From Escherichia coli (GTDB lineage: Bacteria > Pseudomonadota > Gammaproteobacteria > Enterobacterales > Enterobacteriaceae): DNA of 64,000 nt. Shown piece after piece: positions 8,745-37,894 of the stretch. Under the pieces are notes generated by a model, which did no database searches, had not been told where the DNA came from, and saw only the letters and a program-made list of their open reading frames with translations. Location of the stretch: the NCBI RefSeq assembly GCF_024700885.2, contig NZ_CP117016.1; one strand, written 5' to 3'. Positions within the stretch are counted from its first letter, which is position 1, and every line of letters starts with the position of its first letter. Made by a program: the position numbers and the translations under genes.

Positions 8745-9497
8745 TCAGCCCAGCCCCAGCCCGCGAATGCTGGTGGTGAGCGTACCGATTGTCAGCGACC
8801 AGCCGTCGATCAGCACAAACAGCATCAGTTTAAAGGGCAGCGAAACAATCAGCGGCGACAGCATCATCATCCCCATCGCCATCAATACGCTGGCGACAAT
8901 CAGGTCGATAACCAGAAACGGGATGTAAATCATAAAGCCAATCTGGAAGGCGGTTTTCAGCTCGCTCAACACATAGGCAGGCACCACGATGGAGAGATCC
9001 TGATCGGCGGCATTGCCCTTCGCGCCGCCGATGGTCATGATTTGCGCCATCGCTTTTTTGTCGGTCTGCGCCAGCATAAAGCGTTTGAGCGGCGTCGCGG
9101 CGGTGCTTAATGCATCGGTCAGGGTAATCTGATCGTTTTCGAACGGCACTACCGCGTGGTCGTAAATATTGAGCCAGATAGGGCGCATCACCAGCATAGT
9201 GAGTGAGAGCGCAATACCAATCAAAATGCGGTTTGGCGGCGTTTGTTGCAGCCCCAGCGCCTGGCGCAGCAGCGACAGCACGATAATAAAGCGCGTAAAG
9301 CAGGTCATCATCAGCACCATCGTCGGCAGCAAACCGACGAGGGTCATCAGAATCAGTACCTGAATTTTGACGCTGTACTCCTGAGTGTTGCCGTGGGTGA
9401 CCACGTTAAGCAGCGCAATATCGCCACCCTGGGCTAACGCCAGCGGCGCAAGCGCCAGCAGCCCAAGGCCCAGCGTCAGTTGAGTGCGGCGTTTCAT
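8745..9497 (-). CDS. lfiP: flagellar export apparatus protein FliP homologue
   Basis: 250 aa with signal peptide and FliP-like TM core. Confidence 0.88.
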   Translation of the reverse strand: MKRRTQLTLGLGLLALAPLALAQGGDIALLNVVTHGNTQEYSVKIQVLILMTLVGLLPTMVLMMTCFTRFIIVLSLLRQALGLQQTPPNRILIGIALSLTMLVMRPIWLNIYDHAVVPFENDQITLTDALSTAATPLKRFMLAQTDKKAMAQIMTIGGAKGNAADQDLSIVVPAYVLSELKTAFQIGFMIYIPFLVIDLIVASVLMAMGMMMLSPLIVSLPFKLMLFVLIDGWSLTIGTLTTSIRGLGLG

Positions 9498-9865
9498 GGT
9501 GCCAGGTCGTTGATATCGCGGGTGTTAAACTCCAGCACGCGCAGGCCGTACTTCTCGTTGACCACCACCACTTCTGCTTTGCCCAACAGGATATTGTTTA
9601 CTTTAATATCCAGCGGCTCCCCGGCGAGCTTATCCAGCTCAATCACCGTGTCGTCGTCGATGTTAAGGAGGTCGGCTAACATGATCTCTACTGATGACAC
9701 TTCCAGCGTTAAGGTCACCGGAATGCGTTTTAGCAGCGTCATCGAGTCGGAAAAACGGTCTTCCAGGCGGGTGACCAGCGTTTCAGCGTCGGCAGATTTC
9801 GCGACAGGCGCAACTTCATCGGTGAGGCCAAAATCCCCGGCTAAAATATCTTCTTGCTTACTCAT
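9494..9865 (-). CDS. lfiN: flagellar motor switch protein FliN homologue
   Basis: ORF 9494..9925; start trimmed to MSKQEDIL (123 aa) directly after the lfiM stop; SpoA-like C-terminus. Confidence 0.8.
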   Translation of the reverse strand: MSKQEDILAGDFGLTDEVAPVAKSADAETLVTRLEDRFSDSMTLLKRIPVTLTLEVSSVEIMLADLLNIDDDTVIELDKLAGEPLDIKVNNILLGKAEVVVVNEKYGLRVLEFNTRDINDLAP

Positions 9866-25837: not shown

Positions 25838-25913
25838 GCCGATATAGCTCAGTTGGTAGAGCAGCGCATTCGTAATGCGAAGGTCGTAGGTTCGACTCCT
25901 ATTATCGGCACCA
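25838..25913 (+). tRNA. thrW: tRNA-Thr (anticodon CGU)
   Basis: GCCGATATAGCTCAGTTGGTAGAGCAGCGCATTCGTAATGCGAAGGTCGTAGGTTCGACTCCTATTATCGGCACCA; cloverleaf with CGT anticodon; integration site for the downstream island. Confidence 0.95.
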
Positions 25914-26077
25914 TCACCTAGTTTTCCCAAGTCAACCCACATCAACAAAATCATTTAAAAACATATATATTACGTTGTTTTCATACGTTTGAGGTCAACC
26001 CTTGTCTCTTGAAATCAACACGCGGTTGGGGGCACAATCAGGGGCATGTTCTGTTCGGTCTAGGAAATGTGCCCCCA

Positions 26078-27268
26078 ATGATGCTGAATGCCCGCAAGGT
26101 TGAAGCTGCGAAAGGAAAAGAGAAGAGCTACAAGCTGTTTGATGGAGGTGGCCTATATCTTCAGGTCGAACCTAATGGCTCGCGTTACTGGCGTATGAAA
26201 TACCGTTTTGCTGGTAAAGAGAAACGATTGTCCTTTGGTGTTTATCCAACAGTCACACTTGCTGATGCCAGACAAAAACGAGAAGACGCGAAGAAACTAC
26301 TCGCAGCAGGTGAAGATCCCGGCGAAGTCAAAAAAGCCAAAAAGCAGGCTTTAAATGCAGCGATTGAGACACTTAACCCATTCAGAGAAGTGGCGTTAGA
26401 GTGGCACAAAATGAAATCACCCAAATGGTCTGAGGGCTATGCTTCCGACATCATTGAGGCATTCGAGAAAGACATTTTCCCGCATATTGGGCACAGACCT
26501 ATAGCTGATATTCAGCCCCTTGAACTGCTTGAAGTTCTGAGATTGATAGAAGCTCGAGGCGCTATGGAGAAAGCGAAGAAAGTCCGTCAGCGATGCGGTG
26601 AAGTTTTTCGCTATGCCATCGTAACGGGTAGGGCAATCTACAATCCGGCACCGGATCTTGCCAGTGCGATGCAAGGACATGAAGCAGTCCACTATCCATT
26701 CCTCAAAGCCAACGAACTACCGGAGTTCTTTAATGCCCTTAATTCTTATTCAGGAAGTCCAATTGTATTGTTGGGGGCGCATTTACTTATCCTGACAGGT
26801 CTACGAACTGGAGAACTACGAGCAGGTGAGTGGCGAGAGGTGGATTTTGATAATGCGGTGTGGGAGATCCCAAAAGAACGTATGAAAATGCGTAGGAGCC
26901 ATATTGTCCCGTTGTCAAAACAAGCATTATCCCATCTCAAAAGTTTGAAAGAACTAACTGGGAACTACCCGCTGATGTTCCCTGGACGCAACGATCCTAG
27001 CAAATTTATGAGTGAAGCAAGCATTAATCAGGTGTTTAAACGTATTGGATATGCAGGGCGTGTTACGGGGCATGGTTTCAGGCATACGATGAGTACAATC
27101 CTACATGAGAAAGGATTTAACAGCGCTTGGATTGAAACCCAGCTTGCTCATTCGGACAAAAACTCTATTCGTGGAATTTATAACCATGCCCAATATCTCG
27201 AAGGGAGAAGAGAAATGATGCAATGGTATGCTAATTATTTATCTGAGCTAATTGGTACTCATAAATGA
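26078..27268 (+). CDS. P4-type tyrosine integrase (tRNA-targeting)
   Basis: ORF 26009..27268; likely start at MMLNARK; C-terminal catalytic region with HGFRHT and conserved Tyr (RGIYNHAQYLEGRREMMQWY); directly beside thrW. Confidence 0.85.
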   Translation: MMLNARKVEAAKGKEKSYKLFDGGGLYLQVEPNGSRYWRMKYRFAGKEKRLSFGVYPTVTLADARQKREDAKKLLAAGEDPGEVKKAKKQALNAAIETLNPFREVALEWHKMKSPKWSEGYASDIIEAFEKDIFPHIGHRPIADIQPLELLEVLRLIEARGAMEKAKKVRQRCGEVFRYAIVTGRAIYNPAPDLASAMQGHEAVHYPFLKANELPEFFNALNSYSGSPIVLLGAHLLILTGLRTGELRAGEWREVDFDNAVWEIPKERMKMRRSHIVPLSKQALSHLKSLKELTGNYPLMFPGRNDPSKFMSEASINQVFKRIGYAGRVTGHGFRHTMSTILHEKGFNSAWIETQLAHSDKNSIRGIYNHAQYLEGRREMMQWYANYLSELIGTHK

Positions 27269-29687: not shown

Positions 29688-30067
29688 ACCAGCCGCAGGT
29701 TTCCATTTTCCCGGCAGAAATGACCACCGCGCTTTACCGGCGGGCTATTGCTTCAGCATGGCGGCAGAAAATGCTGAACGAAACTGGCAGTGATCAGTAT
29801 GGTCCGCACAGCCTGACGGTGGAGCGTATTGAAATGGCCATTGCGCTGCATATCGAGTGCGTACTGATTAACGAGTACGGCGAAGTGCAGGGCGCCGCTG
29901 CCGCGCTGGCACTGCTGACTGACATGCTGGAGCCGTCACTGCTGACCGCGCCGCCGGTACTGACCGCGCGCGGCTGTGAAGTGATGGCGGAGATGTACCG
30001 CACGCTTCCGGCGGCCTTTGATGACTTCTGCAGTACCGGTGTGACGTTGTATGAGGGGGAAGTATGA
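29684..30067 (+). CDS. hypothetical protein (island early region, precedes primase)
   Basis: 127-aa ORF, 4-nt overlaps with both neighbours. Confidence 0.4.
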   Translation: MNQPQVSIFPAEMTTALYRRAIASAWRQKMLNETGSDQYGPHSLTVERIEMAIALHIECVLINEYGEVQGAAAALALLTDMLEPSLLTAPPVLTARGCEVMAEMYRTLPAAFDDFCSTGVTLYEGEV

Positions 30068-32736
30068 CAATACAGACGGTTACGCAGATTTCAGCCGCCG
30101 CACGGGGGAAATGGCCCGTTATTCTGCAGATGCTGCGTATTGATGTACCTGAAAACGGCAGGCACGGTCCCTGCCCGAAATGTGGGGGCAAGGATCGTTT
30201 TCGCCTTGATGACCTTGACGGGCGCGGGACGTGGATCTGCAGCCAGTGTGGCAATGGTGACGGTCTGGATCTGGTTAAGCTCGTAACCGGTTACAGCGTC
30301 AGAAAGGCTGCGCAGGAGGTGGCGCAGGTGCTTAATGTGCCGAATATGCAGGAACTGCCTGTTAAGCCTGCCAGACAAAAAGCCCCTAAACGCGACATGG
30401 GTCTTACCGTGGCGGCGCTGATGAAAGAGAGCCACACGGGAGAAAGCGCCTATCTGACAGGAAAAGGGTTCGCCGGATACCCGGCCTCTCTGACCGGAAG
30501 CGTGCAGCATATCAGCGGTAAGGATTTCCCTGCCGGTTCCCTGCTGTTACCACTCACGACCAACACCGGAGCCGTGACCGGTGCACAGCTTATCGCCCCG
30601 ACGGGTGAAAAAAGCATACTGCCCGGCAGCACGATGAAAGGCGCGTTTGTGTCGCTCAGCCCGTTACCGTCTGAACCACCGGTACAGGTGGTGATTACCG
30701 AAGGTTACGCTACGGCGCTGACGGTAAGTCAGCTCACTGCCGGATGCGTAGTGGCTGCCATATCTGCGGGCAACCTGCCCAATGTGGCGCAGTCGCTGCG
30801 GGCACGCTGGCCTGAGGTAAAAATTATCATCGCCGGTGATAACGATTTTCAGGACGGAGATGAGAATCCCGGCAGAGCCTTTGCTGAACGGGCGGCAAAA
30901 GCTGTTGGCGGCTGGATGACGCTGCCACCAGGAGAGATTAAGGCTGACTGGAATGACTTTCATCGGGAGCACGGTATTACCCGTGCCCGTGAAGCCTTTC
31001 GCAACGGTCTGGTACTGTGCGGGGAAGGCCGCACGCAACTGCCGCACGGGTTCCGTCTTACCCAGGAATATCTCTGGTATGAAAAGCAGGTACAGCGCAA
31101 CGGTGAGACGGAGATCCAGAACGTCAAAATATGCAGCCCGCTGCGCGTGACGGCAATCACCTGCGATGCCGATGGCGGTAACTTCGGACGACTGCTGGAA
31201 TGGGAAGATACGTGGGGTGAGTGTCGCCGCTGGGCGATGCCGATGGAAATGCTGAGCGGCAGTGGTGAGGAACTGCGCCGGGTACTGCTGGTTAACGGGC
31301 TGTCTTATATCAGCACCACCGGTGAGGCACGCGCACGCCTGATGGAATATATCTCACTGTGTAAACCGGAACGCCGCGTGACCTGCGTCAGTCGTACTGG
31401 CTGGCATGGTCAGGTTTACGTCCTGCAGGATGAGGTCAGCGGTGAAGGTGCAGAGGGTGTCATTCTCCAGACCACTTCCGTGCAGGGGCGTGATTTCCGC
31501 GTGTCGGGCACAACAGAGGAATGGCGGGAGCATGTATCCCGCTACTGTACCGGCAACTCCCGCGTGGCATTTGCTGTCAGCCTGGCCTTTGCTGCACCAC
31601 TGTTACGGCTGGTTGGTATGGACGGCGGCGGCTACCACCTCAAAGGGGAATCGACAGACGGTAAGACCACCACCATGAAAGCGGCAACCTCCGTCTGCGG
31701 CGGGCCTGACTACTGGCAGACATGGCGGGCCACCGGCAACGCGCTGGAGGGATGCGCCAGCCGCCGCAACGATGCCGCCATGATGCTTGATGAGATCCGG
31801 GAAGTTGACGGACGCGAGGCAGGCAATATCGCCTACATGCTGGCAAACGGTCAGGGCAAGGGCCGTGCCGGTACGGACGGTGAGCTGCGTACCCGTAAGC
31901 AGTGGCGCCTGTTGTTCTTTTCAACTGGCGAGTTGTCTCTGACCGAACATGCGGCAAAGGCCGGTGAGCGTACTTTTGCCGGGATGGAAGTCAGGATGAT
32001 CCAGATCCCCAGCGATTCCGGGAAGTTTGGCGTTTTTGAGGAGCTGCACGGCTTCGACAGCGGCAAGGCTCTGGCAGAGCATCTTGAATGGGCCACGTCC
32101 TGCTACTACGGTTCGCCGTTCCGGGAGTGGCTGAAAGCACTGACCGCTGATCTTAACGGACTAACGGCACAGGCAAAATCGCTGATGAAGGAATATGCTG
32201 CCGCCCTGACTCCGAAAGATGCAGGCAATCAGGTGGGCCGGGCTGTGAACCGCTTTGCTCTGGTGGCGATGGCAGGTGAACTGGCAACCCGTCTGGGTAT
32301 CACCGGCTGGCCTGAGGGTGAAGCACTGCGGGCAACCCGCGTCTGCCTGAACGCATGGCTGAAAGATCGCGGGCACACCGCCAATCAGGAAGATATCGCC
32401 GCACTGGAGCAGGTTCGCAGTTTCTTTACCGCGAATCAGTACAGCCGCTTTGCAGACTGGTATGACGAGCGCAACCGCCCCGGCAATATGGTGGGCTGGC
32501 GCAGGGTGGAGAAAGGCAGTACCGCGCAGGGCACGGAAGCTGTCACTACGTTCTATGTCATGCCGTCCGGCTGGAAAGAAATCTGCAGGGGATTTGACCC
32601 GCGCAAGGTGGCGCGTCTGTGCGCAGATCGTGGATACCTGCTGCCCTCCACAGATGGCAAACTCCAGACAACCATTCGCCCGCCAGAGATGAATCCCCGC
32701 AGGCTCTATGTCTTCAACAGCGAGGTGCCTGGTTAA
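30064..32736 (+). CDS. P4 alpha-type primase/helicase (zinc-binding primase domain, Toprim, P-loop NTPase)
   Basis: 890 aa; N-terminal Cys4 zinc motif (CPKCGGKDRF...CSQCGNGDG), Toprim-like acidic region, Walker A GESTDGKTT. Confidence 0.88.
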   Translation: MTIQTVTQISAAARGKWPVILQMLRIDVPENGRHGPCPKCGGKDRFRLDDLDGRGTWICSQCGNGDGLDLVKLVTGYSVRKAAQEVAQVLNVPNMQELPVKPARQKAPKRDMGLTVAALMKESHTGESAYLTGKGFAGYPASLTGSVQHISGKDFPAGSLLLPLTTNTGAVTGAQLIAPTGEKSILPGSTMKGAFVSLSPLPSEPPVQVVITEGYATALTVSQLTAGCVVAAISAGNLPNVAQSLRARWPEVKIIIAGDNDFQDGDENPGRAFAERAAKAVGGWMTLPPGEIKADWNDFHREHGITRAREAFRNGLVLCGEGRTQLPHGFRLTQEYLWYEKQVQRNGETEIQNVKICSPLRVTAITCDADGGNFGRLLEWEDTWGECRRWAMPMEMLSGSGEELRRVLLVNGLSYISTTGEARARLMEYISLCKPERRVTCVSRTGWHGQVYVLQDEVSGEGAEGVILQTTSVQGRDFRVSGTTEEWREHVSRYCTGNSRVAFAVSLAFAAPLLRLVGMDGGGYHLKGESTDGKTTTMKAATSVCGGPDYWQTWRATGNALEGCASRRNDAAMMLDEIREVDGREAGNIAYMLANGQGKGRAGTDGELRTRKQWRLLFFSTGELSLTEHAAKAGERTFAGMEVRMIQIPSDSGKFGVFEELHGFDSGKALAEHLEWATSCYYGSPFREWLKALTADLNGLTAQAKSLMKEYAAALTPKDAGNQVGRAVNRFALVAMAGELATRLGITGWPEGEALRATRVCLNAWLKDRGHTANQEDIAALEQVRSFFTANQYSRFADWYDERNRPGNMVGWRRVEKGSTAQGTEAVTTFYVMPSGWKEICRGFDPRKVARLCADRGYLLPSTDGKLQTTIRPPEMNPRRLYVFNSEVPG

Positions 32737-32769
32737 GGCTTTGCGTGAGTCTTATTTATTAAGGGTAAC

Positions 32770-32960
32770 AGGTGAAACAGGTGGAACAACCGTATTTTAC
32801 AGGGCTGAACCTGTTCCACCTTCTGAAATAGTGAGGTGGAACAGATGTAACGCCAGCCAATCCGCTGTTCCACCTTGTTACCCGCGATGTTCCACCGGTG
32901 CAGTGTATATAAATGCCTTATAAAACAAAGCCGTAACACATGTTTCACCTGTTCCACCGC
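32770..32960. repeat. iteron cluster (repeated GGTGGAACA/TGTTCCACC motif), candidate replication origin/crr
   Basis: At least six copies of the TGTTCCACC core in both orientations within about 190 bp directly downstream of the primase gene. Confidence 0.55.
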
Positions 32961-33046
32961 ATCAGGGACATAAAGCAGACTGAAACAGAGGGCATTTTTA
33001 TCTGGCTGGCTTTCATAGCCACGTCTGAATAACCGCAAGCGCCCGT

Positions 33047-33102
33047 TGTGCCAGCCACCACACACTGAACACCGATAGTGTGCTTGTGTCAGCCACGACA
33101 CA
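33047..33102 (+). promoter_or_regulatory. two TGT-N12-ACA dyads (Ogr/Delta-type activator sites), candidate late promoter
   Basis: TGTgccagccaccacACA (33047-33064) and TGTgtcagccacgacACA (33085-33102) upstream of the sid-like gene. Confidence 0.5.
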
Positions 33103-33136
33103 ATTGACGTAACGAACCAACCCGACAGGAGAAGTC

Positions 33137-33880
33137 ATGAACAATACCGCAGTAAATAACAACCTTTCCACTTTTCCGGCTGTAACGCAGCGGGCACTGG
33201 AAACCATGAACACAGCCAGAAACGCATGGCTTGAAGCACGTCGTCAGCAGAAAGCGGCAGCGGATAATATTGCGACAATCCGCCAGCGTCGCGCTGAAAT
33301 GGAAGCCACGACGAACACACTGAATGAGGAGTGGCGCACGCTGTTTCGTGAAAGTCAGGGCGTGATCTCAAAGGAAATGAAAAAACTGCGCACGGAAATT
33401 GCGCTGGGACGAGAAACGCTTGAGGATTTTGATGAGCTGCTGGCGGCTCAGGAAAGCGAAAATGCACTTTTGCCGCAGAAAGCTGCAGAATTAGCCGGAA
33501 AGTATATCCACGCGCATAACATTCTTGTGGATATTCGCGCAAAACAAATCTGGGAGGATTTTATGCAGTCGCATGGAAAAGTGCTTATTCAGACGCTGAG
33601 CCTGCTTAAATCCACAATGGGCCGGGAAGCCAGTGCCGTTGTGGGTGTGGTGAATTCAGTTAATGACCCGGACACAGTGCTGAAAGACTTTATTCATAAA
33701 TATATCACCAGACCGGCTCTGGCTAACGATGCGATGCCTGAGCAGGACCCGGTGTTTAAACTGGCGGGAGTTGCCCCGGATTATGCGGCGCGTCTGGATT
33801 TCAGTAATCAACTCTCTCCGGCAGCTATGCATAAAATTAAGGTTCGTCAGGAACTTGCTGAGAAGGAGAAAGCAGTATGA
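33137..33880 (+). CDS. Sid-like capsid size-determination (external scaffold) protein
   Basis: 247-aa helix-rich protein; first gene of the late operon downstream of the TGT-N12-ACA dyads and immediately upstream of the Psu-like gene; assignment by context and size. Confidence 0.45.
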   Translation: MNNTAVNNNLSTFPAVTQRALETMNTARNAWLEARRQQKAAADNIATIRQRRAEMEATTNTLNEEWRTLFRESQGVISKEMKKLRTEIALGRETLEDFDELLAAQESENALLPQKAAELAGKYIHAHNILVDIRAKQIWEDFMQSHGKVLIQTLSLLKSTMGREASAVVGVVNSVNDPDTVLKDFIHKYITRPALANDAMPEQDPVFKLAGVAPDYAARLDFSNQLSPAAMHKIKVRQELAEKEKAV

Positions 33881-34428
33881 CGGCCCGAGGCACGCCTGAC
33901 CAGGCACTTACCAGTTTTCGGAATGCCCGTATTCTGTGGGCCGGACATAATGAGAGCCGAAAAGCCGTTGAACAACAGATAACATCTCTCCTCGCTGCCA
34001 CAGAAAAACCAGCAGATTATGCCCGACAGCTCGAATTACTGCGGGAACGTCTGGATGTGCTGAAATGGCAAATTAACTGTGCTGCGCGCGAATGCATTTA
34101 CTCGCAGCATTTACTGATGGAGGCCTGCACAGAAGCCGCTCTCAGCAATTTTATGCAGGCGAATGGGGCAGCCCTGACATCTGCACTGGCTCCGTTCCTG
34201 AAGGGGCGCGGAGGGGTTGACGTTGCGTCCCGTATATTACGCAGTGCTCTGGTTCGCCAGCTGGCAATAACACCGCCTGAATTTGCCGGGGATTATCGTG
34301 AGATCCTGGATGAATCCGGTTTGATGCTTGACCCCGGGATGATTCGTGATTGCCAGGGTTCTTACACCCCGGCACAACATCTGCGTTTTCAGCAACGCCT
34401 GAATGACATTAACGATATACAGGAGTGA
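33877..34428 (+). CDS. Psu-like polarity-suppression / capsid-decoration protein
   Basis: 183 aa; motifs recalled from P4 Psu (LKWQINCAAR, HG.ALA.ALAP, TPAQHLRFQQR); 4-nt overlap with the sid-like gene. Confidence 0.65.
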   Translation: MTARGTPDQALTSFRNARILWAGHNESRKAVEQQITSLLAATEKPADYARQLELLRERLDVLKWQINCAARECIYSQHLLMEACTEAALSNFMQANGAALTSALAPFLKGRGGVDVASRILRSALVRQLAITPPEFAGDYREILDESGLMLDPGMIRDCQGSYTPAQHLRFQQRLNDINDIQE

Positions 34429-34433
34429 TATTA

Positions 34434-34706
34434 ATGGCACTTAAATGTCCGGAATGCGGTACAGTTGCACACGCCAGAACAGCAGCCTATGAAGCTCCGT
34501 CAGTTAAACGCTCGTGGTATCAGTGCCAGAATCTGGAATGTTCCTGCACATTTACGGCACTGGAGAGTGTGGATAAGATAATCATGAAACCCCGGCGCAA
34601 TGAACAGGAACCAGACAAATCACAAACCCCGGTAAAACAACAGCAAACGCTCAATCGCTATGGCTCCGCGTCAAAACTGTCAAGCCGTCAGCAGATTCCT
34701 GTCTGA
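34434..34706 (+). CDS. Ogr/Delta-family zinc-finger late transcriptional activator
   Basis: ORF 34425..34706; start trimmed to MALKCPECG with AGGAG upstream; Cys4 pattern CPECG...CQNLEC typical of Ogr/Delta. Confidence 0.75.
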   Translation: MALKCPECGTVAHARTAAYEAPSVKRSWYQCQNLECSCTFTALESVDKIIMKPRRNEQEPDKSQTPVKQQQTLNRYGSASKLSSRQQIPV

Positions 34707-34727
34707 TTAGAAAAAAAATGCCCACGT

Positions 34728-34753
34728 AATCCCGGTCGAGTACTGGGATTTTT
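34728..34753 (+). terminator. rho-independent terminator-like hairpin after the late operon
   Basis: aatccc-ggtcgagtact-gggatt stem-loop followed by a T run. Confidence 0.4.
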
Positions 34754-35289
34754 AACACCTTACCCCTGGCTGGCCTGAGAGCGCATGAGTGCATGTCTAT
34801 GGCGCATGAAAACGCATGAGTCTCATGCACCATTTTTGACGCGAAAGCCCTTGTGTGGTGGCTTCTGAGACGATTAATGAGGTGCATGAAAACCAGTCTG
34901 TTAAGTGAAGCGGGAAGGCGTGCGGGGCTGCGCACGTAGCAGGGTTAAATGGTCAATTCTGGCGCAGCTCACGACATTAAGTCAGCCTCAATAGATGTAC
35001 GTGTTGGTAGGGGTAATTCGCTACTTTTTTGTATCCTAAATTGTATGGTTTGATGCTGATCGTTTCTTCACCGCACCTGCAGAGATATCAATTCAATGTG
35101 GACAAAAATGAGTCTGGCTCTTTCCGTATCACTAGAATTGCCAGTATTGTTAGGGATGATGCCCATATCATACGGAGGGAGCCAGTGGGGGCGATTGCGC
35201 GTGGAAAGTGCTTTGGATTTATTCATCGGTTTTATGATTCTACATAAGGAGCAAAGGTACTTGTATCGTATGAAAAAAAATAGTATAGA

Positions 35290-35520
35290 TATAATGCTCC
35301 TTACGCGTTATGGCATAGTTATATGCTAGTCGGGCGATTAGCCAGACTCGAACTTATTGAACGGTATTAGGGTTGCGCTTGGTGTGCCTCTGGATTGCAC
35401 TCCATGCTGTCGCGCAATCCAGAGGCACACCAAGCGCTTCCTTTAGGTAAGTGAGTAAAAACAGCACCTTCTTCGATTTATGATGAAGGTGCTGCAATCG
35501 TAACGTTTTTTGTATACACG
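35290..35520 (+). ncRNA. candidate retron msr-msd non-coding RNA
   Basis: Non-coding stretch directly upstream of the effector-RT pair with a perfect 24-bp stem (35375-35398 / 35414-35437, 15-nt loop) and a second 10-bp stem (35462-35471 / 35485-35494); exact ends and a1/a2 repeats not resolved. Confidence 0.55.
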
Positions 35521-35529
35521 GATAGTATA

Positions 35530-36498
35530 GTGGCTGAGACATACGAAGATAAAGTTGCTAATCATGTTTCAGAGTGGGAAATGGAAAATTTCCGTGTATG
35601 TTATGATGATCAGGTTATTTTCTTATGTGGTGCGGAAGTACTTCCTCAAGGAAGTGTTCAGACTTCAATGAGAGGGCATTTTTATCACTATTGCCTGAAT
35701 AAAAATAAAGATATAGCTGATAAAATAATTCTTGCCGAAAACTTCAAAAAATATCTTCAAAATAATCATTATCCAGACTTAATAACTTTTGAGCATGATG
35801 TTGCAAGTATATCTAGTTTAGTTGTTATTTTCTTGGAAAGCAGTGGTTCAATTGCTGAGTTAGGTGTTTTCTGTAATATTAGTGATGTCAATAAAAAATT
35901 ATTGATATTTGTTCCATCAGATGAAGTTGAAGGTGACAAGAAAGAGTCTTTCATTTACTTAGGGCCTTTATTGTTTTTAAAAGAAAAGGTCAATGAAAAA
36001 GCATTTAAGATTTATCCAAAACCCACTAATGGTTCTGATTACTCCGAGCATTTAGAGATTATGGCTGATGACTTGGCTGAACTATTACCTAGAAGTGGTA
36101 AGTTTGAAAGCTTCGATCCTGACAATTTAGGGCATATAGCTTTTCTTATATGCAGAATTGTGCATTTAGTAATGCCTATTAAGCTAAAGGAAATATTAAA
36201 TTGTTTAAAAATAATAGGTATCAATAAATATACTCTGACTGAGGTTGAAAGAATTTTGTTTTTATTGGAAACATTGGGTTTTATAAATATTTATCCGTAT
36301 GGCGATTTAAAATACTATTATTCAATGCAAGCCAGGCAAAATCTTAAATTAGGGAAAAATAAAACCGGATTCACAATCGATGAGGCTGGTATTTTTACTG
36401 ATATTAGTGTTTTTATCAATGACAATAAATTATGTAGTGATAAAAAAAGACGGCTGGTTTTGAAAGGCATTAAGGAGAAGCATAATGGACATAATTAA
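35530..36498 (+). CDS. retron effector candidate: nucleoside 2-deoxyribosyltransferase-like (NDT-like) protein with C-terminal putative DNA-binding region
   Basis: 322 aa (GTG start in the ORF track); Rossmann-like N-terminus with ESSGSIAELG motif resembling the NDT-family catalytic Glu region; overlaps the RT gene by 14 nt; AT-rich. Confidence 0.6.
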   Translation: MAETYEDKVANHVSEWEMENFRVCYDDQVIFLCGAEVLPQGSVQTSMRGHFYHYCLNKNKDIADKIILAENFKKYLQNNHYPDLITFEHDVASISSLVVIFLESSGSIAELGVFCNISDVNKKLLIFVPSDEVEGDKKESFIYLGPLLFLKEKVNEKAFKIYPKPTNGSDYSEHLEIMADDLAELLPRSGKFESFDPDNLGHIAFLICRIVHLVMPIKLKEILNCLKIIGINKYTLTEVERILFLLETLGFINIYPYGDLKYYYSMQARQNLKLGKNKTGFTIDEAGIFTDISVFINDNKLCSDKKRRLVLKGIKEKHNGHN

Positions 36499-37417
36499 AA
36501 AAATCGCAGATGAAACTCTAATGCCGGTATCAAAAGTATCTGCTTTTATATTTACAGCCCCATATAGATATAAAGTATATCCCATCCCCAAAAGGAATGG
36601 TGGGTTTAGGGAGATTGCTCAACCGTCAAGGGCATTAAAGTTTATGCAAAGGATTGTTATTGCTGAACTAGAGAAAGTACTTAAGGTTCATGAAAACGCA
36701 TATGCTTATGTCAAAGGACGTAGTATAAAAGATAATGTGGAAAAGCATCAAAGAAACTCTTATATTTTGAAAGTTGATTTCTGCGACTTTTTTAATAGCA
36801 TAAACCCTTACGACCTTGAGTTATGTTTAAAAAACAATGGGTTAGACTCATTGTTAAGCTCACAAGAATTATTGAATAAACTTTTTTTCTATAAGAAAAG
36901 TAAAAGAGGTGCTTTATCAATGAGCATCGGGGCACCTAGTTCTCCATTTTTGTCAAATGCGATTATGTATAAGTTTGATTCAGTCATTAGTGATATGTGT
37001 TCAAATAAAAATATTACTTATACAAGATATGCTGATGATCTTACATTTTCTACTAATGAAAAAGGTATTTTGTATGAATTCATACATGAAATAGATAAAG
37101 TTCTTGAGGAGATAGATAGTCCTAAATTAAAACTAAATGATAAGAAAACCATATTTGCATCTAAAAAATGCAATCGTCATATAACAGGAATTGTTATTAA
37201 TAACGAAGAAAAACTTTCAATTGGTAGAGATAAAAAACGTTACTTAAGTAGTTTAATTCATAAATTCTCGCTTAATGCACTTAATGAGGAAGGAGTTGAA
37301 CATTTAAAAGGGTATTTGGCGTATGTAAATAAAATTGAACCTTCATTCATTAGCAGAATGAAAAGGAAATATGGAGTCGAAGTTGTCAACTCCATAATCA
37401 CATTTAATCCATTATAA
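36485..37417 (+). CDS. retron-type reverse transcriptase
   Basis: 310 aa; RT motifs YRYKVYPIPKRNGGFREIAQPSRALK, VDFCDFFNSI, GAPSSPFLSNAIM, TRYADDLTFS (YADD active site), HITGIVI; distant resemblance to the Ec86 RT. Confidence 0.9.
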   Translation: MDIIKKIADETLMPVSKVSAFIFTAPYRYKVYPIPKRNGGFREIAQPSRALKFMQRIVIAELEKVLKVHENAYAYVKGRSIKDNVEKHQRNSYILKVDFCDFFNSINPYDLELCLKNNGLDSLLSSQELLNKLFFYKKSKRGALSMSIGAPSSPFLSNAIMYKFDSVISDMCSNKNITYTRYADDLTFSTNEKGILYEFIHEIDKVLEEIDSPKLKLNDKKTIFASKKCNRHITGIVINNEEKLSIGRDKKRYLSSLIHKFSLNALNEEGVEHLKGYLAYVNKIEPSFISRMKRKYGVEVVNSIITFNPL

Positions 37418-37894
37418 ATGTGAACTTATTATATTTATAATGGTTGTGCTTTTTTCTTGTACCTTAGGGGTGTAAAAGAATGTCATCATGAAGATAATTA
37501 AAAAATGAATGGCAATAAGAGTAATAGGTAACATTTTTTCAATATCACTTAAATGGCGATGCCTTTTTTGTGTAATAACTTCCTCTTCTCTTTTGAAAGG
37601 AGTTATACCTATCTTGACCTCCATCTCCTGAATTACTGTAAACTTAGCAGCATTAATTCTTTTATAGGAAGTAATTAGATTTATCCAATAGATATTAATT
37701 ACGACTCCAGCGAGAGAGATTAAGATTACCCAAATAGGCTGTATTGTTGGCTTTAAAGAAAAATATCCAACAAGCGGTAAAATAGAAGAGTTTAAGGCTA
37801 ATAAAAATGTATTTGACTTAAGTCTTCGATCACTTATTCTATCCGCCATCTCAACGCATGTTTTATATATTTCTATGACTTTATCATCCGTCAC
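37412..37894 (-). CDS. small three-TM membrane protein of unknown function (candidate defence/abortive-infection effector)
   Basis: 160 aa with three predicted hydrophobic helices; AT-rich; convergent with the RT gene, its stop codon overlapping the RT's last codon. Confidence 0.55.
   Translation of the reverse strand: MTDDKVIEIYKTCVEMADRISDRRLKSNTFLLALNSSILPLVGYFSLKPTIQPIWVILISLAGVVINIYWINLITSYKRINAAKFTVIQEMEVKIGITPFKREEEVITQKRHRHLSDIEKMLPITLIAIHFLIIFMMTFFYTPKVQEKSTTIINIISSHL

What the first reader, a model, noticed from the sequence alone, without database searches (positions are those of the whole stretch)
33047..33102. Two tandem TGT-N12-ACA dyads upstream of the sid-like gene
TGT-N12-ACA is the recognition pattern of Ogr/Delta zinc-finger activators at P2/P4 late promoters. 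Two copies about 38 bp apart precede the sid-psu-delta operon, which itself encodes an Ogr/Delta homologue. This implies helper-dependent or auto-activated late expression.
Basis: partly seen in the sequence, partly recalled or inferred. Interest (0 to 1): 0.4.

Follow-up and report, generated by a model that had tools for sequence, protein, structure and literature searches.

The report
Ogr/Delta-activated sid promoter of P4-like satellite
The two dyads are real and mark the late "sid" promoter of a P4-like satellite prophage in E. coli, laid out base for base like the well-studied promoter of phage P4, so this is a correct but ordinary finding.

Summary
Confirmed. Two perfect TGT-N12-ACA dyads lie at 33047-33064 and 33085-33102, 38 bp apart, and the second ends 35 nt before the ATG of a sid-like gene.

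The bare pattern is not enriched in the window (15 found, 13.7 expected). The pair is not chance: it occurs in 0.9% of whole-window shuffles, and the chance of it lying just before one named gene is about 1.6e-5.

Phage P4's own Psid has the same geometry: 38 bp spacing and 35 nt to the ATG.

All eleven other loci with an intact or nearly intact sid-like gene and enough upstream DNA, from at least five lineages, keep both dyads. TGT, ACA and a CACAATT -10 block are invariant, while the N12 spacers vary.

A weight matrix trained only on other elements ranks the two window sites first and second of 64,000 positions. In P2, its top two hits are the annotated activator sites of PF and PO/PP.

The operon encodes Sid, Psu and a 90-aa Delta with the CX2CX22CX4C motif, 47% identical to P2 Ogr.

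Best reading: a weak sigma-70 promoter with +1 near 33111. Helper Ogr and the element's own Delta would activate it from sites at -55.5 and -17.5. Activation itself was not tested.

It is a new member of a known kind, of low interest.

The parts
32770..32958 (.). Cluster of about 9 iterons (TGTTCCACC / GGTGGAACA, both orientations). It is the counterpart of the P4 ori type-1 repeats (GGTGAACA) that also lie just upstream of P4 Psid.
   Evidence: Repeat families D1-D3 and inverted pairs I3-I16. The P4 record annotates ori type-1 repeats at 9310-9413, ending 80 bp before its first dyad. Here the last iteron ends 89 bp before dyad 1.
33047..33064 (+). Distal Ogr/Delta-type dyad TGTGCCAGCCACCACACA, centred at a predicted -55.5.
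   Evidence: Its TGT and ACA are invariant in the 12-sequence alignment. It scores 20.9 bits, rank 2 of 64,000, with a matrix trained on other elements. Its centre lies 48.5 bp from the last T of the -10-like hexamer, as in P2 PO and P4 Psid.
33076..33081 (+). Weak -35-like hexamer TAGTGT, 17 bp upstream of the -10-like hexamer.
   Evidence: Only its T (33076) and G (33078), positions 1 and 3 of TTGACA, are invariant across the 12 sequences (columns T60 and G62). The consensus sigma-70 scan does not call a promoter here, as expected for an activator-dependent promoter.
33085..33102 (+). Proximal Ogr/Delta-type dyad TGTGTCAGCCACGACACA, centred at a predicted -17.5. Its 3' ACA overlaps the -10-like hexamer.
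   Evidence: It scores 24.8 bits, rank 1 of 64,000. Its TGT is invariant in all 12 sequences. It has the same position as the second P4 Psid dyad at 9531-9548.
33099..33104 (+). -10-like hexamer CACAAT (4 of 6 to TATAAT, with A2 and T6 kept).
   Evidence: CACAATT is invariant in all 12 aligned promoters, including P4.
33111..33111 (+). Predicted transcription start: the A of the TAAC motif shared with P4 and several relatives. It has not been mapped.
   Evidence: Inferred as 7 nt after the -10 hexamer and 55.5 nt after the centre of dyad 1. The geometry is calibrated on the start sites and activator sites annotated in the P2 RefSeq record. TAAC is conserved between the window and P4.
33128..33132 (+). 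Shine-Dalgarno sequence AGGAG of the sid-like gene.
   Evidence: AGG is invariant in the alignment. It lies 4 nt before the ATG at 33137.
33137..33880 (+). sid-like gene (247 aa), a homologue of the capsid size-determination protein.
   Evidence: 23% identity to P4 Sid over 226 collinear residues, E 2e-12. Pfam Psu family 2.2e-9, consistent with the published Sid-Psu homology (PMC7552001).
33877..34428 (+). psu (183 aa), polarity suppression and capsid decoration protein.
   Evidence: Pfam PF07455 5.4e-43. 29% identity to P4 Psu.
34434..34706 (+). delta (90 aa from the annotated start, 93 aa from the GTG at 34425): a single-domain Ogr/Delta zinc-finger activator.
   Evidence: Pfam PF04606 7.2e-16. 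CX2CX22CX4C read from the translation. 47% identity to P2 Ogr, E 7e-17. It matches both halves of the 166-aa P4 Delta. Annotated start as in L002.
34814..34838 (+). Terminator-like hairpin plus T-run after delta, the probable end of the operon.
   Evidence: It is the only + strand terminator-like site in 32600-35600.
34912..34930 (+). cos-like 19-mer GGCGTGCGGGGCTGCGCAC, with part of the left flank shared with P2 and P4 (GTGAAGCGGG).
   Evidence: 12 of 19 bases match the P2/P4 cos GGCGAGGCGGGGAAAGCAC. The exact P2 cos is absent even with 3 mismatches allowed.

Best explanation
The two dyads are the activator-binding sites of the late promoter (Psid) of a P4-like satellite prophage integrated at tRNA-Thr next to proA in E. 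coli.

The promoter is a weak sigma-70 promoter. It has a -35-like TAGTGT at 33076-33081, a -10-like CACAAT at 33099-33104, and a predicted +1 near 33111. It probably fires poorly without help.

An Ogr/Delta-family zinc-finger protein binds the distal dyad, centred at -55.5. This is the position from which Ogr activates P2 late promoters through the alpha subunit of RNA polymerase. A second copy binds the proximal dyad, centred at -17.5, as in P4 Psid.

The activator can be the Ogr of an infecting or induced P2-like helper. That ties Sid, Psu and Delta production to the helper's late phase. It can also be the satellite's own Delta, the last gene of the same operon, which closes a positive feedback loop.

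Shown here: the sites, their geometry, their conservation, the homology of the genes, and the match to P2's annotated sites. Inferred: binding, the transcription start, activation, and the role of the proximal site.
For: 1. P4 Psid has the same layout to the base. Its dyads are at 9493 and 9531 (38 bp apart), and the second ends 35 nt before the sid ATG, against 33047, 33085 and 35 nt here.

2. There is a phylogenetic footprint. All 12 promoters compared carry two dyads: the window plus eleven other loci with a sid-like gene and enough upstream DNA. These are two further E. coli types, a Salmonella contig, Pantoea, two Enterobacter, Mixta, Pseudocitrobacter, two metagenomic contigs and P4. Spacing is 38 bp in eleven and 39 bp in one. 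In alignment A3 the invariant columns are TGT, ACA, TGT, CACAATT, two -35 bases, the SD and the ATG. The N12 spacers differ completely between lineages. A thirteenth locus, cut 58 nt upstream of sid, still shows the proximal dyad. Two loci with no sid or a truncated sid were not shown to carry the pair: no perfect dyad was found near psu in L009, and L011 was not scanned for dyads.

3. A weight matrix trained on sites from other elements only ranks the window sites 1st and 2nd of 64,000 positions (24.8 and 20.9 bits; the next is 15.4). In the 33.6-kb P2 genome, its two best hits fall inside the annotated activator-binding sites of PF and PO/PP.

4. The distance from the centre of the distal dyad to the last T of the -10 hexamer is 48.5 bp here and in P4. 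It is 48.5 bp in P2 PO and 49.5 bp in P2 PF, whose start sites are annotated.

5. The consensus sigma-70 scan finds no promoter here, as expected for an activator-dependent promoter.

6. The operon encodes Sid, Psu and a Delta with CX2CX22CX4C, 47% identical to Ogr.

7. Literature: TGT-N12-ACA is the Ogr-dependent late promoter consensus (PMC3931495), and Ogr trans-activates P4 sid, delta and psu (PMC7552001).

8. From my own recollection, not checked here because the paper is not held: Julien & Calendar 1995 footprinted P4 Delta at about -55 and at a second site near -18 in Psid.
Against: There is no experimental datum for this locus: the start site, binding and activation are all inferred.

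The alpha-type primase gene ends at 32736, 400 nt upstream on the same strand. No intrinsic terminator is predicted between it and sid. Read-through could therefore express the operon without any activator.

A site centred at -17.5 overlaps the core promoter. For most regulators that position represses, so the positive role of the proximal site is not established.

The P2-type cos 19-mer is not conserved (12 of 19 bases). The actual helper, and hence the actual Ogr, is unknown.
Confidence: 0.88

Rival explanations
1. This is the same promoter, but the proximal dyad (-17.5) is a negative site, an operator. At high Delta or Ogr concentration it would occlude the -10 region and cap expression of Sid, Psu and Delta. 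The distal dyad alone would activate.
For: The proximal dyad spans -26 to -9 and shares its ACA with the -10 hexamer, a position typical of repressors. P2 late promoters work with a single site, so a second site is not needed for activation as such. A positive feedback loop, with delta inside the operon, would benefit from a brake.
Against: The proximal site is the better match to the family matrix (24.8 against 20.9 bits), so it would fill first and would block activation from the start. Nothing in the sequence tells activation from repression. As I recall the P4 work, both sites were described as activator sites, without evidence of repression.
Confidence: 0.2
2. The operon is mainly expressed by read-through from the upstream alpha (primase) operon, and the dyads are conserved relics with little regulatory weight in this gene arrangement.
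For: Alpha and sid are on the same strand, 400 nt apart, with no intrinsic terminator predicted between them. The same alpha-then-sid arrangement occurs in L007, L014 and L015.
Against: The half-sites, the -10 block and the spacing are invariant in this arrangement and in the P4-type divergent arrangement alike, while the surrounding DNA has diverged. That indicates selection on the promoter. Rho-dependent termination in the untranslated iteron region cannot be excluded by these tools.
Confidence: 0.06
3. The dyads are a chance repeat, the target of an unrelated regulator (a CRP-like protein or the replication initiator), or an RNA or DNA hairpin signal.
For: The bare TGT-N12-ACA pattern is as frequent in the window as chance predicts. 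The sites lie next to replication iterons. TGT-N12-ACA is also the PpsR/CrtJ consensus in purple bacteria.
Against: The pair and its position have a chance probability of about 1e-5. The CRP consensus TGTGA-N6-TCACA needs 10, not 12, bases between TGT and ACA. The iteron sequence (TGTTCCACC) is unrelated to the dyads. As RNA, the region folds no better than shuffles (z = -0.18). PpsR/CrtJ belong to phototrophic proteobacteria, not E. coli.
Confidence: 0.02

Closest known systems
Psid, the late promoter of satellite phage P4 (X51522, dyads at 9493-9510 and 9531-9548)
   Same: Both have two perfect TGT-N12-ACA dyads 38 bp apart, with the second ending 35 nt before the sid ATG. Both share the CACAATT -10 block and a TAAC at the predicted start, and both have ori iterons just upstream. 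Both drive an operon encoding Sid, Psu and Delta.
   Different: The N12 spacers and the rest of the promoter DNA are unrelated (blastn finds no match). Gene order is sid-psu-delta rather than sid-delta-psu, a swap reported in 20% of P4-like elements (PMC8628076). Delta is a single 90-aa Ogr-like domain rather than P4's 166-aa tandem pair. The upstream neighbour is a co-directional primase gene rather than the divergent immunity region. The block TTGAC follows the -10 here and in all non-P4 relatives, but not in P4.
P2 late promoters PP, PO, PV and PF (Ogr-dependent)
   Same: The half-site family is the same: T-TGT...CA-A, with left halves TGTGTCAG and TGTCTGG shared. The distance from site centre to the -10 hexamer is the same (48.5-49.5 bp). 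Both have a weak -35. Both use an activator of the Ogr/Delta family.
   Different: P2 promoters have one site each, and it is imperfect: TGT-N12-CCA in PO and PF. They score 11-12 bits against 21-25 bits for the satellite sites. There is no second site over the core promoter.
Sid-operon promoters of other P4-like satellites (O157:H7 type, Pantoea, Enterobacter, Mixta, Salmonella; retronphage phiR73 by recollection)
   Same: They have the identical two-dyad architecture and a single-domain Delta of 90-96 aa. Several also carry reverse-transcriptase cargo downstream.
   Different: They differ only in the N12 spacers, the leader length (31-36 nt from dyad 2 to the ATG) and the cargo genes. phiR73 itself could not be examined because it is not in the phage collection searched.

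Membership tests
Ogr/Delta-dependent late promoter (P2/P4 type) | A TGT-N12-ACA element of dyad symmetry upstream of the core promoter. | tested here: met
   There are two perfect copies at 33047-33064 and 33085-33102. The consensus is as cited in PMC3931495.
Ogr/Delta-dependent late promoter (P2/P4 type) | The site is centred about 55 bp upstream of the transcription start. | tested here: inconclusive
   The start site is not mapped here. By geometry, the distal dyad centre lies 48.5 bp from the last T of the conserved -10-like hexamer. This matches P2 PO (48.5 bp, site at -55.5 from the annotated start) and PF (49.5 bp).
Ogr/Delta-dependent late promoter (P2/P4 type) | A poor sigma-70 core promoter that needs an activator. 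| tested here: met
   The consensus scan does not call a promoter at 33076-33104. The -10-like CACAAT matches 4 of 6, and only 2 of 6 bases of the -35 are conserved. This is a sequence-level test only.
Ogr/Delta-dependent late promoter (P2/P4 type) | A cognate activator of the Ogr/Delta zinc-finger family (CX2CX22CX4C) is available. | tested here: met
   Pfam Ogr_Delta 7.2e-16. The motif was read from the translation. 47% identity to P2 Ogr.
Ogr/Delta-dependent late promoter (P2/P4 type) | Transcription depends on Ogr or Delta and on the C-terminal domain of the RNA polymerase alpha subunit (the rpoA109 phenotype). | not testable with these tools
   This needs reporter assays or in vitro transcription.
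P4 Psid class (two-site satellite late promoter) | A second activator site over the core promoter (about -18), 38 bp from the first. | tested here: met
   The proximal dyad is centred at a predicted -17.5. The 38 bp spacing is the same as in P4 and is conserved in 12 promoters. That Delta binds this second site in P4 rests on my recollection of Julien & Calendar 1995, which is not held.
P4 Psid class (two-site satellite late promoter) | It lies directly upstream of a sid homologue that heads an operon with psu and delta. | tested here: met
   Sid homology E 2e-12. Psu and Delta by Pfam. The genes overlap or abut.
P4-like satellite | The core gene set: integrase, AlpA, alpha primase, Sid, Psu, Delta, a cos site, and integration at a tRNA. 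| tested here: met
   Int, AlpA, a Toprim/Zn-ribbon primase, Psu and Ogr_Delta are all found. tRNA-Thr lies at 25838-25913. A cos-like site lies at 34912-34930. Departures: the primase carries DUF927 rather than P4's D5_N/Pox_D5 domains, no epsilon/Ash domain was found among the small ORFs tested, and the cos matches only 12 of 19 bases.
CRP-type site | TGTGA-N6-TCACA, that is 10 bases between TGT and ACA. | tested here: not met
   Both sites have 12 bases between TGT and ACA. The spacing is invariant in relatives.

The most novel reading that the evidence does not exclude
The strictly conserved two-site layout could be a satellite-specific device. It consists of perfect dyads at -55.5 and -17.5 and is kept whether Delta is a single domain or a tandem pair. 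Helper late promoters have one imperfect site each. The satellite promoter would therefore capture limiting Ogr or Delta first and fire at a lower activator threshold than the helper's own late genes. The core-overlapping site would act by an unusual activation or feedback mechanism. In the alpha-then-sid arrangement seen here, read-through from the replication operon could supply the first Delta and so replace P4's separate PLL route.
Probability: 0.3. Interest if true: 0.4.

Novelty: new member of a known kind. Interest (0 to 1): 0.18.

Why it matters
This is the switch that couples a satellite's capsid-hijacking genes (Sid, Psu) and its activator (Delta) to the late phase of a helper phage.

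Identifying it in this element gives a precise, testable promoter for a satellite family whose sid-promoter region matched 641 of 5426 complete E. coli genomes. The element also carries a retron defence cargo.

The small added value is comparative. The two-site geometry known from P4 is invariant across lineages whose promoter DNA is otherwise unrelated, and it does not depend on Delta being a tandem duplication.

It does not open a new question. It extends a 1990s result to a wider family.

Tried and rejected
- **DNA similarity to sequenced phages.** blastn of 32700-34750 against the phage collection found nothing. P4 was reached only through the Psu protein.
- **Primary papers.** Julien & Calendar 1995 and 1996, and a review I recalled as covering P4 regulation (PMC3518693), are not held. 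Three further full-text searches found nothing on the two Psid sites. The -55/-18 footprint therefore rests on my recollection.
- **P4 records.** Neither P4 record annotates Psid or its start site. The geometry was calibrated on P2 instead.
- **Cross-species scan.** The genome-collection scan with the Psu alignment returned only 5 loci. Six more came from contig look-ups.
- **A second activator-dependent promoter (PLL-like).** The only other strong matrix hit, 26904-26923 at 15.4 bits, lies inside int codons for the conserved HIVPLSKQAL motif. It has no partner dyad and no -10-like hexamer at the right distance. I rejected it as chance.
- **RNA hairpin or attenuator reading.** z = -0.18. Rejected.
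- **CRP and PpsR/CrtJ readings.** Rejected on spacing and on host range respectively.
- **Exact P2 cos.** Absent. The cos-like variant has only weak matches to P2-like phages, E 0.03-0.09, so the helper was not identified.
- **Helper prophage.** Whether strain 1190 carries a P2-like prophage could not be checked with these tools.

Full report
**1. The observation.**
The sequence reads TGTGCCAGCCACCACACA at 33047-33064 and TGTGTCAGCCACGACACA at 33085-33102. With one flanking T they form a 19-nt direct repeat that is 89% identical.

The bare TGT-N12-ACA pattern has no statistical weight. The window holds 15 copies against 13.7 expected. The pair does have weight. Two sites 37-39 bp apart occur anywhere in only 18 of 2000 dinucleotide-preserving shuffles of the window. 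The chance of such a pair within the 100 nt before one named gene is about 1.6e-5.

**2. The setting.**
The window is E. coli chromosome, 100% identical to strain 1190 over the region. A P4-like satellite prophage sits at tRNA-Thr (25838-25913) next to proA. Its parts, in order, are:
- integrase (26009-27268);
- an AlpA-like regulator;
- an Icd-like gene (annotation);
- a Toprim/zinc-ribbon/DUF927 primase (30064-32736);
- a cluster of TGTTCCACC iterons (32770-32958);
- the two dyads;
- a sid-like gene (33137-33880), psu (33877-34428) and an Ogr/Delta zinc-finger gene (34434-34706);
- a terminator-like hairpin (34814) and a cos-like site;
- a retron cargo.

The Sid homologue is 23% identical to P4 Sid over 226 collinear residues (E 2e-12). 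Delta carries CX2CX22CX4C and is 47% identical to P2 Ogr. It matches both halves of the tandem P4 Delta. The sid-psu-delta order is a known variant of the P4 order (PMC8628076).

**3. Comparison with P4.**
The DNA is too diverged for blastn, yet P4's region upstream of sid has the same architecture to the base. It has perfect dyads at 9493-9510 and 9531-9548 (38 bp apart). The second ends 35 nt before the sid ATG at 9583, just as 33102 precedes 33137 by 35 nt. An ungapped alignment of the two promoters conserves the half-sites, a CACAATT block and a TAAC. In both, ori-type iterons end 80-90 bp upstream.

**4. Phylogenetic footprint.**
I collected loci through a Psu alignment, contig look-ups and E. 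coli genome hits.

Every locus with a sid-like gene and enough upstream DNA has two perfect dyads, with spacing of 38 bp (39 in one). There are 12 in all: the window, two further E. coli types, a Salmonella contig, Pantoea, two Enterobacter, Mixta, Pseudocitrobacter, two metagenomic contigs and P4. The Mixta sid (L008) carries an in-frame stop. A thirteenth locus (L012), cut 58 nt upstream of sid, still shows the proximal dyad.

In the 12-sequence alignment the invariant columns are:
- TGT and ACA of dyad 1;
- TGT of dyad 2;
- CACAATT;
- the Shine-Dalgarno AGG and the ATG;
- two isolated bases (T and G) that fall at positions 1 and 3 of a -35 hexamer, 17 bp upstream of CACAAT.

The N12 spacers differ completely between lineages. 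Two loci in which sid is missing or truncated gave no evidence of the pair. No perfect dyad was found near psu in L009. L011 has only a 72-aa sid remnant and was not scanned for dyads. Across 17 unique sites the extended consensus is T-TGT-N11-C-ACA-A.

**5. Link to the helper's promoters.**
The P2 RefSeq record annotates the activator-binding sites and transcription starts of the four late promoters. There the sites are imperfect: TGT-N12-CCA in PO and PF. They are centred at -55.5 (PO) and -57.5 (PF). The site centre lies 48.5 bp (PO) and 49.5 bp (PF) from the last T of the -10 hexamer. In the window and in P4 that distance is 48.5 bp.

A weight matrix trained only on sites from elements other than the window and its close relatives ranks the two window dyads first and second among 64,000 positions (24.8 and 20.9 bits; the next are 15.4 and 10.1). 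In the P2 genome its two best hits fall inside the annotated PF and PO/PP activator sites. This is an independent check that the satellite dyads and the helper's experimentally defined sites belong to one motif family.

**6. Mechanism.**
The geometry places +1 near 33111, the -10 hexamer at 33099-33104, a weak -35 at 33076-33081, the distal dyad at -55.5 and the proximal dyad at -17.5. The consensus sigma-70 scan does not call this promoter, which fits activator dependence.

By established knowledge of P2 and P4, Ogr and Delta activate such promoters. P2 Ogr trans-activates P4 sid, delta and psu (PMC7552001), and Delta is described there as a homologue of Ogr. Another paper describes Delta as a mimic that competes with Ogr (PMC8096241). 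The operon would therefore be switched on by a helper's Ogr and then amplified by its own Delta.

That P4 Delta footprints both a -55 site and a second site near -18 in Psid is my recollection of Julien & Calendar 1995. I could not read that paper here. Binding, the start site, activation and the sign of the proximal site's effect are all inferred.

**7. Caveats and rivals.**
- The primase gene is co-directional, and no intrinsic terminator is predicted before sid. Read-through is therefore possible. The conservation of the promoter in both gene arrangements argues that it still matters.
- The proximal site overlaps the core promoter and could be a brake rather than a co-activator. The sequence cannot decide this.
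- The chance, CRP, replication-iteron and RNA-hairpin readings are rejected.
- The only other strong matrix hit (26904-26923) lies in conserved integrase codons with no promoter features, so I treat it as chance. I found no PLL-like second late promoter.

**8. Verdict.**
This is the Psid-type promoter of a P4-like satellite, a new member of a well-known kind.

The modest comparative point is that the two-site geometry is invariant across lineages and occurs with single-domain Deltas. It is therefore not tied to P4's tandem Delta. Helper promoters, by contrast, have single, imperfect sites. Interest is low.

Noticed in passing
window 32770-32958: About nine copies of the iteron TGTTCCACC / GGTGGAACA, in both orientations, lie between the primase gene and the sid promoter. 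They resemble P4's ori type-1 repeat GGTGAACA with one extra base and occupy the same place relative to Psid. This is probably the satellite's replication origin.
   Followed up: partly
window 34896-34930: A cos-like site, GTGAAGCGGGAA-GGCGTGCGGGGCTGCGCAC, shares part of the left flank with P2 and P4 (GTGAAGCGGG) but only 12 of 19 bases of the cohesive-end sequence. The exact P2 cos is absent, and matches to P2-like phages are weak (E 0.03-0.09). The natural helper may therefore be a P2 relative with a different cos. My simple pattern found no such site in the other related loci.
   Followed up: partly
window 35296-37894: The cargo downstream of the cos-like site is a retron. It comprises an msr RNA (35296-35365, 53.4 bits, above Rfam's threshold), an STnc400-like stretch (35368-35486, probably the msd part), a 322-aa effector, a 310-aa reverse transcriptase (both annotated as retron St85 family), and a convergent 8xMP/RipA-family membrane protein (37412-37894, minus strand). 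Two related satellites also carry reverse transcriptases in this position (L010, L013).
   Followed up: partly
window 30064-32736 and 32736-33137: The primase is a Toprim/DUF927 type (890 aa), not P4's D5_N/Pox_D5 type (777 aa). It lies directly upstream of sid on the same strand, with no predicted intrinsic terminator between them. The same arrangement is seen in Pantoea, Salmonella and Klebsiella-type loci. P4, the O157:H7-type element and others have the divergent arrangement.
   Followed up: partly
window 33103-33108 (and the same place in L003-L015): TTGAC directly follows the -10-like hexamer (CACAATTGAC) in every non-P4 relative but not in P4 (CACAATTTTC). It lies in the discriminator region of the predicted promoter. 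It has no suitably placed -10 of its own, and I have no explanation for it.
   Followed up: no
window 32987-33002 and 35671-35686: An exact 16-nt direct repeat, AGAGGGCATTTTTATC. One copy lies 45 nt upstream of the distal dyad and the other inside the retron effector gene. About 0.02 such matches are expected by chance in 13 kb. It is unexplained.
   Followed up: no
window 26904-26923: A third perfect TGT-N12-ACA with good flanks (15.4 bits) lies inside the integrase gene, in codons for the conserved HIVPLSKQAL motif. It has no partner site and no -10-like hexamer, so it is probably chance under coding constraint.
   Followed up: yes
L002-L004 annotation of the sid-like gene; L008 3262-4004: RefSeq labels Sid homologues variously as 'hypothetical protein', 'septation initiation protein' or 'phage polarity suppression protein'. 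The second label looks like a misnomer. In the Mixta locus (L008) the sid reading frame carries an in-frame stop, yet both dyads are intact.
   Followed up: no
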